Assembly: GCF_009914755.1 (NCBI RefSeq)
Contig: NC_060930.1
Length of the DNA: 64,000 nucleotides
From: the human T2T-CHM13v2.0 reference genome, Homo sapiens
Reading direction: 5' to 3' (one strand)
Under the pieces are notes generated by a model. That model worked only from the letters and a program-made list of their open reading frames with translations, searched no databases and was not told the origin of the DNA. Below are positions 15,056 to 18,929 of the stretch, piece after piece. The translations under genes and the position numbers were made by a program. Each line of letters starts with the position of its first letter. Position 1 is the stretch's first letter.

Positions 15056-15104
15056 ATCATAAATTTGGAAAGGAGAGCTTTATTTCTTTTAAAGAGTTAC
15101 TGCT

Positions 15105-15203
15105 GACTGGGCATTGTGGCTCACATCTGCAGTCCCAGCACTTTGGGAGGCTGAGGTGGGTGGATCGTTTGAACCCAGGAGTTCGAGACCAGCCTGGCAA
15201 TAC
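15105..15203 (+). mobile_element. 5' piece of an AluJ split by LTR insertion and inversion
   Basis: Ends at ...CAGCCTGGCAATAC; the remainder lies at 17736-17950 on the minus strand. Confidence 0.85.
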
Positions 15204-15551
15204 TGATGCAGAACTTTGCTCCTCAGTTCAGCTAAAACCGGGTTCTTGTCACATGACCAGGAAAAGTTAAGCAGGCAGACACTTTGAAGGGTGAGGGGAA
15301 TGGAATTTTTTGGGTGAAAAAGGAAAAGAAGAAAAGAAAAACCTCTCAGCAAAGAGCAAGGGGGGTTCCTGCCAACAGGTCCCCACTCCACAGATTGATT
15401 CCAGGCCACACACAGTAGCTGAAGAGGCCAGGCTCCTCCCCGACCACTGCACACTCGGCACGAACTTCCCGTGGCTCCACCCCATTTTCCCAGTATGCAG
15501 GCAGGTGATTCTCCAGGGACCCTCCCCTTTATCTGTCTCCTGCATCTATCA
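15204..15551 (-). mobile_element. ERV1 solo LTR (MER83/MER48-like), copy A
   Basis: TGA...TCA termini; inverted homolog of 17951-18293. Confidence 0.8.
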
Positions 15552-15588
15552 TTATCTATTTTATTTTATACATTTAAAACACTATTCT

Positions 15589-15755
15589 GCCGGGTGTGGT
15601 GACCTGCACCTGTAGTCCCAGCTACTCAGGAAGCTGAGGCAGCAGGATCTCTTGAACTCAGGAGGTGGAGGCTGCAGTGAGCTATGATCATGACAATGCA
15701 CTCCATCCTGGGCAACACAGCAAAACCTTGTCTCAAAACAAACAAACAAAAAACA
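15589..15755 (+). mobile_element. FRAM-like Alu monomer
   Basis: Right arm only. Confidence 0.8.
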
Positions 15756-15809
15756 AAACCCCACCATTATTCTCAGAAGTACAGCAGCTTTCACAAATTG
15801 CCAAAGGGG

Positions 15810-16240
15810 TCTGTTTTAGGTTAGTTTCCTTCAGAAGCAGATCTGGAGACAAAGATTTGAAGCAAGGAGGTTATTAGAGAGGAAATCCCTGGCATAATTG
15901 ATAAAGTAGACAGGAAAGGGCAGAAGCCAGCATGGGGTGCATCGATGAGCAATGAACTTAATGAACTCCTTGGCTCAATCCCACTGGGACCTTCAAGAGA
16001 CTACTGTATAGAGCATGCCTCGGAGTCATCCTACCCTTGAGGAAGCTGGGGTATTTCTTCACCAAATCCCATTTCACTTGAGGGCTGCCCCCAGGGCACT
16101 GACATTTCTAGCCTGCCCTACCCATGGGTAGTGCTCCTGTGACTAGGGTAAGTCCTCAACAGTGTCAGAGGCTTAAAGACGGAGCCATCTGAATGGCAAC
16201 CTTAGAGGACAAGTGGGTAGGGCACAAAGTTTGGCTACAA
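15810..16240 (-). mobile_element. LTR16-like (ERVL) fragment
   Basis: TTAGGTTAGTTTCCTTCAGAAGCAGA...GAGACAAAGATTTG resembles the reverse LTR16 3' end. Confidence 0.5.
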
Positions 16241-16586
16241 GGCCTGCAGCACTAAAAGGTTAGGAACGCCTCAGAGCTGCCCCTTTTAGGATGGACCCAC
16301 TCAGCTCCCCGGTTCCCACTCCCTGACATCTGCTTTCTGTCCGCTGCTCAGTGTCTCCAGTGGATTCACAAAACAACTGCCTTTCTCCCTTTCCACCTCA
16401 GTTCATTATCAAGAACAACCCTGGGGTTTCCCACCTTAATCAGGCTGCTCCGGCCTCTGCCCACAGCCCTTCTGACACCTGGTTTATGTGTGACCCTGCC
16501 ACCCTTAACCCCCAGCAGCAGGGGATGTCAGCTTTCTTTCAGGGAAGAACACAGACTCCTTTTGAGAGACTATAGTGAGATAATTT

Positions 16587-17665
16587 TGTAAACTGAAAAT
16601 AAAATCCTAAGCCCCCCAGTTGACTTAATGGACCCCCTCTTGGCCAAGGGGACCCCAGAGAAACCTTAAAAACTGAGTTCCCAGGCAGGAGAGGATGGGA
16701 GGTCAGACACACCTCGTCATACCTCATCCCTTTTGTGGTTTAGACAACCACTGACCAGCATTAATAAACCAGAGATCATAAGACTGACAGAACAAAGTAT
16801 TTGAGCCAATGAAAGACCAAACTATAAACAAGACTTAAGGCCATGGCAGGTCAGGGTTAAGTCACACACCCCTGCACTTAAAGAAAAAGTGTTCTGCCAC
16901 AAGGTTTTAATTTTTCTCTAGCAGCCAAACAAACATTGGCCTTGAGATAAGCAAGATTAAAACAACTTGCAGATCGTCCATCAGCCAAAACTACAGCTTG
17001 GGTTGAACACGAGACTGATTTCAGTAACCTTCTCCTGATAAGAAGACTACTGACCATGGACTGGTTCTGGCTGGTTTACAGATGCTGCATACTTGAGTTT
17101 GCTTGTGTCCTGAAAAGACCTTTTGATGTATAAGACCTAATTGTAATACATTTATTTTTTTTTAATTAATTTTTTTTTTTTTTGAGACGGAGTCTCACTA
17201 TCGCTTAGGCTGGAGTGCAGTGGTGCGATCTCGGCTCACTGCAAGCTCTGCCTCCCAGGTTCATGCCATTCTCTTGCCTCAGCCTCCCGAGTAGCTGGGA
17301 CTACAGGCACCCGCTACCATGCCCGGCTAATTTTTTTTGTATTTTTAGTAGAGACGGGGTTTCACCCTGTTAGCCAGGATGGCCTCGATCTCCTGACCTC
17401 ATGATCCATCTGCCTCAGCCTCCCAAAGTGCTGGGATTACAGGTGTAAGCCACCGCGCCTGGCCAGCTGTAATACATTTAAATGCTAAGTCTCCACCCTA
17501 AGGTGCACATGGGTCATATGCAATATACTAGTTTATTCAGTATATGTGCTTCAGGACCACTTTCATGAATATTCATAGCTCCTTCTGTAACCTGTTGAAT
17601 ATGTATACTTGGCCAACCCAGTCAGATTAAATTCCTTTCTTATTCCTCCTCGTCCCTCAAAGTTC
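16587..17665 (+). mobile_element. MER4-family LTR with an AluY insertion
   Basis: TGTAAACTGAAAATAAAATCCTAAGCCCCCC start; AluY at ~17152-17464 with TSD TGTAATACATTTA. Confidence 0.75.
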
Positions 17666-17735
17666 ATTCTCTAGGCTCTGCCAGAGGCTATGCTTCCCAC
17701 TAGTCCGAATGGTACATTGTAGGCTGCAACTCTTT

Positions 17736-17950
17736 ATTTTTATTTTATTTTTAAATTTATTTTTGAGACACGGTCTCACTCTGTCACCCAGGCTGGAGTG
17801 CAGTGGTGCAATCACAGCTCACTGCAGCCTCGACCTCCCGGGCTCAGGTGATTCTCCAACCTCAGCCTTTCAAGTAGCTGGGACCACATCCGTGCACCAC
17901 CAGGCCCAGTTAACTTTCACAATTTTCTTGGAGACAGGGTTTCACCATAT
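17736..17950 (-). mobile_element. 3' piece of the split AluJ
   Basis: Minus strand begins ATATGGTGAAACCCTGTCTC and lacks the 5' ~100 nt. Confidence 0.85.
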
Positions 17951-18293
17951 TGATAGATGCAGGAGGTAGATAAGGGAAAGGGTCCCCAGAGAATCTCTGA
18001 CCTGCCTATGCACTTGGGAGAAGGGGGTGGAGCCACGGGAAGTTCGTGCCATGTGCAGTTGGGGAGGAGCCTGGCCTCTTCAGTTCTTGTGTGTAGCCTG
18101 GAATCAGTCTGGGGGTGGGGGTGCTGTTGGCAGGAACTCTTCTTGCTTTGCTGAGAGATTTTTTTTTCTTCTTTTCCTTTTTCACCCAATAAATTCTGTT
18201 CCCCTCACCCTTCAATGCGTCTGCGTTCCTAGCTTTTCCTGCTTGTGTGACAAGAACCTGGTTTTAGGGTTTAAGGAACAAAGTTCTGCATCA
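17951..18293 (+). mobile_element. ERV1 solo LTR (MER83/MER48-like), copy B
   Basis: TGATAGATGCAGGAGG...AATAAA...GTTCTGCATCA. Confidence 0.8.
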
Positions 18294-18929
18294 ATAAGAT
18301 TCAAAAGAAATCATTCTATTGAAATATGATTCTAGGCACAGGCTAGTTGGGGGTCTCTGAGCCCCAGATCCCACAGCTGTGCTGAGATGCCTGCCCACAA
18401 GCTCAAGGAGCATGTCTAGGAGTCCACGGAGGCAAGCAGAGGCAGGAAGAGGAGACCAGAATTCAGCTGCCGGTGGTGAGCCTCAGGAAACTCTTTATCA
18501 AAGCCTAGAAAAGCCAAAGGTGGGCCCGAGAGGGAAGAAAGAGACAAAGAGATGGGAAGAAGATGGAAGTAGGACACTTAGAGTGGGAAGGAAAAAGAGC
18601 AAGAGAAAGTGAGAGGGAGCAGCAGAGCCCTGGGAAGGGAGCTTGAAGGGGTGGGGCACGTTTGGAAGCCTCTGTGATTATTTGGGGAAGGCTGATTTTC
18701 TAGTGCCTTGGGCTGGGCCCATGCAGGTTACTTCCTACCCAGCTACCTTCCTGGCTCTTCTGCCCAGGGAGCTCCTTCTGCCAGTCCCCAGCCTACTGCA
18801 CTTCTTCCTTATATGCTTGGAGTGTGTGGAATGCTGCTCACCACTCTGGGGCAGTTGGAGACTGAGATAACTCCCTCCCTGGAATGTAGGGAATTTGGTG
18901 TGCTGGAAAGAGAGAAAGAGAGAGGGAGA

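What the first reader, a model, noticed from the sequence alone, without database searches (positions are those of the whole stretch)
15091..18297. 2.4-kb inversion between two inverted solo LTRs, shown by a split Alu and swapped TSDs
LTR A (15204-15551, -) and LTR B (17951-18293, +) are inverted homologs. The Alu left of A stops at ...CAGCCTGGCAATAC, and its continuation (ATATGGTGAAACCCTGTCTC...poly A) sits at 17950-17736 on the opposite strand. The Alu's TSD halves are also opposed: AAAGAGTTACTGCT (15091-15104, +) and AAAGAGTTGCAGCCT (17735-17721, -). Flipping 15552-17950 restores one Alu and gives LTR TSDs ATAC/ATAT (A) and ATAA/ATAA (B), whereas A currently has mismatched ATAC/TTAT. Inference: ectopic LTR-LTR recombination in primates, after AluJ.
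Basis: seen in the sequence. Interest (0 to 1): 0.7.

Follow-up and report, generated by a model that had tools for sequence, protein, structure and literature searches.

The report
Ancient flip between two retroviral LTRs
A 2.4-kb piece of human chromosome 6 lies flipped between two remnants of an old retrovirus, as two repeats broken across its edge show; it likely arose by recombination between those remnants tens of millions of years ago, an ordinary process with no known effect here.

Summary
LTR A (15204-15551, -) and LTR B (17951-18293, +) are inverted solo LTRs, 86% identical, of a family that makes 4-bp target duplications. The two Alu pieces join with a 3-4 base overlap in 26 of 37 projections on intact Alus. 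New: the Alu sits inside an older LTR that is also split. Its body is on + (16587-17735) and its tail on - (15104-14733). Segment 15552-17950 is therefore inverted. A and B have diverged as much as the two LTRs of one provirus (about 37 My at a recalled rate), so the flip is no older than that. The likely cause is a crossover between two neighbouring insertions. A second inverted pair of this family on chr3 suggests such neighbours occur without flipping. The chimerism test gave no signal, and no primate outgroup could be read, so the mechanism and the lower date are inferred. The locus was absent from the two inversion lists checked. It is a new member of a known kind (retroelement recombination-mediated inversion), lies in a lncRNA intron and has no known effect. 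A one-step duplication of a single LTR is not excluded (about 6%).

The parts
14733..14757 (-). Last piece (3' end, ends in CA) of the older host LTR ('LTR C')
   Evidence: Matches the 3' ends of other genomic copies on the minus strand only: 14 of 14 bases with L114
14758..15051 (+). Older-type Alu inserted in the tail of LTR C, outside the inversion; duplication at 14742-14757 / 15052-15067
   Evidence: Read from the sequence
15052..15104 (-). Tail of LTR C, on the opposite strand to its body
   Evidence: 15040-15104 as minus strand scores 51, 48, 46, 31 and 16 against five other copies; as plus strand 13-21; shuffle maxima 23-28
15091..15104 (+). 5' half of the split Alu's target duplication
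   Evidence: 11 of 14 bases match the 3' half; both halves align to the same columns of LTR C
15105..15203 (+). 5' piece of the split Alu (J-type; label recalled)
15200..15203 (+). ATAC: outer half of the 4-bp duplication made by the LTR insertion into the Alu
   Evidence: 3-4 base overlap of the Alu pieces
15204..15551 (-). Solo LTR A (ERV1-type; MER61A by recall, not tested)
   Evidence: no internal proviral sequence found in the window
15552..15555 (-). ATAA on the minus strand: displaced half of the second 4-bp duplication
15552..17950 (.). Inverted segment, 2399 bp, inside an intron of LINC02570
   Evidence: Split Alu and split LTR C; gene position from the hub's RefSeq table
16587..17735 (+). 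Body of older LTR C, interrupted by a younger Alu at about 17160-17465
   Evidence: About 75% identical to other genomic copies; alignment stops at the Alu duplication
17721..17735 (-). 3' half of the split Alu's target duplication
17736..17950 (-). 3' piece of the split Alu with its A-rich tail
17947..17950 (-). ATAT: displaced half of the duplication made in the Alu
17951..18293 (+). Solo LTR B, same family as A
18294..18297 (+). ATAA: outer half of the second 4-bp duplication
   Evidence: the flank 18294-18700 is single-copy

Best explanation
The 2399-bp segment 15552-17950 is inverted between two solo LTRs of one retroviral family, likely because two neighbouring insertions in opposite orientation recombined with each other in an anthropoid ancestor. 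Shown: an older LTR (C) received an Alu; a retroviral LTR then landed in that Alu with a 4-bp duplication; the far parts of the Alu and of LTR C now lie on the other strand, next to LTR B. Inferred: a second insertion of the same family landed 2.4 kb away in the opposite orientation (duplicating ATAA), both insertions were reduced to solo LTRs, and a crossover inside the 345-bp homology flipped the spacer and swapped the inner halves of the two duplications, probably with some gene conversion. Inferred age: at most about 30-50 My, probably early while the LTRs were still nearly identical; probably fixed in humans. No function is shown.
For: The split Alu rejoins with a 3-4 base overlap in 26 of 37 projections. 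Split LTR C has its tail on the opposite strand. The family makes 4-bp duplications, and the flipped pairing (1 and 0 mismatches) fits better than the present one (2 and 1): naive likelihood ratio about 110, comparisons not independent. All four LTR ends are intact, as two integrations would leave. A-B K2P distance is 0.161 against 0.140-0.213 for the LTR pairs of five proviruses. Among 178 pooled places of the family there are 11 close direct pairs and 2 close inverted pairs. The other inverted pair (chr3) has a matching duplication around its complete copy, which fits the un-recombined starting state. Lee 2008 (PMC2603318; passages, section 5 and Table S1 read) describes the same signature for Alu and L1 pairs.
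Against: No chimeric switch was found: correlations of inner against outer affinity were 0.02 to 0.33, not negative, and the tree is star-like. A and B are sisters in a 40-row tree (91/84) and rank in the top 2.3% of 780 pairs for shared minor alleles (6% without the T-rich tract). Independent insertions would not predict this unless they shared a source or were converted. Only about 0.2 inverted pairs within 3 kb are expected genome-wide for about 670 copies under uniform placement. The original adjacency at the right breakpoint rests on four bases only. LTR C's own flanks match at only 1 of 4 bases (read). No outgroup was seen.
Confidence: 0.85

Rival explanations
1. One-step event: a single insertion in the Alu was copied, or its two inner LTR ends were joined to a new 4-bp target 2.4 kb away by an integrase-type reaction. 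This inverts the spacer and duplicates ATAA, as intramolecular replicative transposition of IS26 does in bacteria.
For: The predicted product is the same sequence. He 2015 (PMC4471558; passages read) argues for this reading over 'second insertion then recombination' for IS26 pairs. A and B are sisters and as diverged as a provirus's two LTRs. All four ends are exact.
Against: I know of no retroviral integrase pathway acting on chromosomal LTR ends (recalled knowledge). Conversion or a shared source explains the sister relation. Sister support is only moderate and is lost when the LTR is halved. The chr3 pair suggests close inverted neighbours occur without a flip.
Confidence: 0.06
2. Replication template switching or staggered breaks inverted the segment and duplicated the one LTR at the breakpoints; the ATAA match is microhomology or chance.
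For: It explains sister LTRs without a second insertion. ATAT and ATAA share three bases. Such complex inversions are common in humans (PMC12350158; passages read).
Against: Both new junctions would have to fall exactly on the LTR termini and give an exact 4-bp duplication, the family's own length. Non-cognate flanks match exactly in 1.0% of pairs.
Confidence: 0.06
3. No inversion: two separate Alus were each cut by an LTR and lost the other part, or the assembly is wrong.
For: B's present flanks differ by one base only, which 16 of 55 solo copies also show. The Alu TSD score is reached by 46 of 600 non-cognate pairs.
Against: The pieces complement each other to the base, and LTR C is split at the same point onto opposite strands. 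LTRs 14% apart are unlikely to mislead a long-read assembly (inference).
Confidence: 0.02

Closest known systems
Retrotransposon recombination-mediated inversion (RRMI; Lee et al. 2008, PMC2603318)
   Same: A small inversion bounded by two inverted copies of one retroelement family whose target duplications no longer match.
   Different: That set is Alu-Alu and L1-L1 and human- or chimpanzee-specific; its 49 listed loci include none on chr6. Here the elements are 345-bp ERV1-type solo LTRs with 4-bp duplications, and polarity comes from nested split repeats rather than an outgroup.
Repeat-bordered balanced inversions and LTR-LTR recombination in human populations (PMC12350158)
   Same: Inverted repeats at both ends, with homology-directed formation inferred; that paper counts 45 such among 257 balanced inversions.
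   Different: The LTR events described in the passages I saw are deletions and insertions between direct LTRs. This locus is not among the 10 chr6 rows of a T2T inversion polymorphism table (PMC10150506).
MER61 LTRs of the HUERS-P3 group (ERV1)
   Same: About 340-430 bp LTRs with 4-bp duplications and proviral pairs 5.4-8.8 kb apart. Repbase lists MER61A with HUERS-P3 (PMC5753468; passages).
   Different: The family name is my recall; no repeat library was available to test it.
IS26 / Tn4401 intramolecular replicative transposition in trans (PMC4471558)
   Same: Same end product: two inverted copies, an inverted spacer and swapped duplications.
   Different: That is a bacterial DNA transposase pathway; not known to me for retroviral LTRs.

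Membership tests
RRMI (retroelement recombination-mediated inversion) | Segment is inverted relative to the ancestral state | tested here: met
   Split Alu and split LTR C
RRMI (retroelement recombination-mediated inversion) | Both breakpoints lie in inverted copies of one element family | tested here: met
RRMI (retroelement recombination-mediated inversion) | Target duplications are swapped | tested here: met
   1 and 0 mismatches flipped against 2 and 1 as they stand; family control
RRMI (retroelement recombination-mediated inversion) | Elements are chimeric at a crossover point | tested here: inconclusive
   No switch found; star-like tree gives little power
RRMI (retroelement recombination-mediated inversion) | Pre-recombination state with both elements seen in an outgroup | not testable with these tools
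   No primate genomes held
ERV1-type solo LTR | TG..CA ends, 4-bp duplication, same sequence flanking proviral internal regions elsewhere | tested here: met
ERV1-type solo LTR | No internal region attached | tested here: met
   Seven internal-side flanks of other copies found no internal match next to A or B
MER61A | Best match to the library entry | not testable with these tools
   Name recalled; no repeat library on hand
AluJ (split Alu) | Both pieces carry the older-type diagnostic positions | tested here: met
   Both side with the Alus at 8070 and 32591 among 25 (by eye; an automatic grouping was uninformative); the label J is recalled
Intramolecular replicative transposition (IS26-like) | Arises in one step from a single copy, with no two-copy un-inverted intermediate | not testable with these tools
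   Needs outgroups; the end product alone cannot decide

The most novel reading that the evidence does not exclude
The two LTRs come from one insertion: an integrase-type reaction on chromosomal LTR ends joined them to a new 4-bp target 2.4 kb away, inverting the spacer in one step. A retroviral LTR would then have behaved as a replicative DNA transposon in a primate germ line.
Probability: 0.06. Interest if true: 0.8.

Novelty: new member of a known kind. Interest (0 to 1): 0.22.

Why it matters
As it stands this is a clean textbook case: a small ancient inversion in the MHC whose direction can be read from one genome through nested broken repeats. It could serve as a rare phylogenetic marker in primates. 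It shows a way to find old fixed inversions without outgroups (inverted LTR pairs with swapped duplications and split host repeats). It also warns that a one-base TSD mismatch can hide a rearrangement. It changes no annotated exon. It would matter much more if a survey showed that such pairs arise in one step.

Tried and rejected
Chimerism scan of A and B against 33 other copies, then 38: no crossover point. No allele was private to A and B alone, so there is no sign of late conversion. Automatic grouping of Alus into subfamilies failed; the alignment was read directly instead. Search for a repeat spanning the right breakpoint: 18294-18700 is single-copy. A first boundary call on the 74 extra copies failed for the longer subfamilies and was redone; 22 of 74 had no findable 3' end and were dropped. 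Also dropped before the TSD count: A, B, one X/Y duplicate, six copies with unmatched ends and all proviral LTRs; one copy (L021) was put back by hand. A third motif gave only 15 hits. Literature: ten searches, read as listings, gave no paper on this locus. Word searches in PMC7848197 (text and 12 supplements), PMC9772353, PMC10078292 and PMC5580718 found no mention. The spreadsheet of PMC12350158 lists no inversion table in its index, and its largest supplement could not be read. Lee 2008 tabulates only its 49 retrotransposon-mediated loci out of 252 inversions. Three papers asked for by id were not held, so Hughes and Coffin's HERV recombination work was seen only as reference lines. Subscription papers and ape alignment tracks may already show this inversion. 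A recent or polymorphic origin was considered and judged unlikely: the longest perfect match between A and B is 27 bp and the locus is absent from the 44-sample table.

Full report
Observation. The window is human chr6 in the MHC, and the finding lies in an intron of LINC02570 (hub table). LTR A (15204-15551, minus) and LTR B (17951-18293, plus) are inverted homologues with intact TG..CA ends, identical at 290 of 338 aligned bases. Their flanks read ATAC/TTAT and ATAT/ATAA today and would read ATAC/ATAT and ATAA/ATAA if 15552-17950 were flipped.

The split Alu. The piece left of A (15105-15203, plus) and the piece inside B (17950-17736, minus) were searched separately against all Alus of the window. 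In 26 of 37 cases where both hit one Alu, they abut with a 3-4 base overlap, which is the LTR's duplication. By eye, both pieces share diagnostic positions with the same two older-type Alus among 25; the name AluJ is recalled. The Alu's own duplication matches at 11 of 14 bases. That is typical of intact Alus here but was also reached by 46 of 600 non-cognate pairs.

The Alu sits in an older LTR (C) that has many copies in the genome. Its body runs on the plus strand from 16587 to 17735. The stretch 15040-15104, left of the Alu, matches the 3' part of the same family on the minus strand: scores 51, 48, 46, 31 and 16 against five copies, with shuffle maxima of 23-28 and plus-strand scores of 13-21. 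Body and tail overlap at the Alu's duplication. The last bases of LTR C lie at 14757-14733, beyond another Alu. This makes the inversion close to certain. Against: LTR C's own 4-bp flanks match at one base only.

Target-duplication control. From 112 loci of the family, 55 solo copies with usable ends had 0/1/2/3/4 mismatches in 29/16/8/1/1 cases. Non-cognate flanks matched exactly in 1.0% and with one mismatch in 9.7% of 2970 pairs. The naive likelihood ratio for the flip is about 110, but the comparisons are not independent (dropped rows are listed under Tried and rejected). The original adjacency at the right breakpoint rests on ATAA alone, since the flank is single-copy.

Age and kinship of A and B. 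Their K2P distance is 0.161; the LTR pairs of five proviruses give 0.140-0.213. At a recalled rate of 2.2e-9 per site per year this is about 37 My. It dates the last time A and B were alike and is an upper bound for the flip, not its date. A and B group with two other copies in a 35-row tree and as sisters (91/84) in a 40-row tree. They rank in the top 2.3% of 780 pairs for shared minor alleles, or 6% without the T-rich tract. The copies were collected partly by similarity to A and B. No crossover point and no private shared allele were found. No internal proviral sequence lies next to either.

How common are such neighbours? About 670 places match the LTR start above the control count, which predicts about 0.2 inverted pairs within 3 kb under uniform placement. 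In 178 pooled places there are 11 close direct pairs (proviruses, by spacing) and 2 close inverted pairs. The other inverted pair (chr3, locus L120, 4.6 kb apart) has a matching duplication around its complete copy and a partner lacking its 5' part. It looks like two neighbours that did not flip, which supports the premise of the two-insertion model.

Mechanism. Most likely (0.85): two insertions in opposite orientation, reduction to solo LTRs, then a crossover within the 345-bp homology, with conversion or a shared source explaining their kinship. Lee 2008 (PMC2603318; passages, section 5, Table S1) describes this signature for Alu and L1 and reports that sequence identity favours it, so the flip probably came early. 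The same product follows from one-step intramolecular replicative transposition, as argued for IS26 by He 2015 (PMC4471558; passages). I know of no such pathway for retroviral integrase and give it 0.06. Template switching that duplicates one LTR gets 0.06, because both junctions would have to fall exactly on the LTR ends with a 4-bp duplication.

What is known. The locus is not among the 49 loci of Lee 2008 (no chr6 row; Alu and L1 only), nor among the 10 chr6 rows of the T2T inversion table of PMC10150506 (44 sample columns; supplement rows read). Ten library searches and word searches in four MHC papers found no description. Subscription papers, bioRxiv supplements and primate alignment tracks were not seen. 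The family name MER61A is recalled; Repbase places it with HUERS-P3 (PMC5753468; passages).

Verdict. A real, neatly documented, probably old and fixed 2.4-kb inversion. It is a new member of a known kind, with no shown function. Interest 0.22.

Noticed in passing
L120:1211-1548 and 5771-6049 (G000:C3:60383710-60388548): A second close inverted pair of the same LTR family, 4.6 kb apart and 80% identical over 230 bp. The complete copy has a matching 4-bp duplication and the other lacks its 5' part, so this pair appears not to have flipped.
   Followed up: partly
window 15461-15637: A RefSeq silencer (hub table) straddles the left breakpoint, covering the inner end of LTR A and the start of the inverted segment.
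   Followed up: no
window about 15305-15312: LTR A, which is sense to LINC02570, lacks the intact polyadenylation hexamer; at the differing column B agrees with 33 of 33 other copies. May be chance.
   Followed up: no
window about 15811-16239: A further old LTR-like element (TG..CA, ERVL-like by recall) lies wholly inside the inverted segment. It would be a good orientation marker in distant mammals.
   Followed up: no
window 15589-15760: A lone Alu right-arm monomer with a rough target duplication lies just inside the left breakpoint.
   Followed up: no
L104, L029: Two apparently solo copies of the family have 4 and 3 mismatches in their 4-bp flanks. They are candidates for other rearrangements or unrecognised proviral ends.
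   Followed up: no
L010 and L011: The same LTR insertion is on X and Y, 1.4% diverged, as expected for the X-transposed region (recalled).
   Followed up: no
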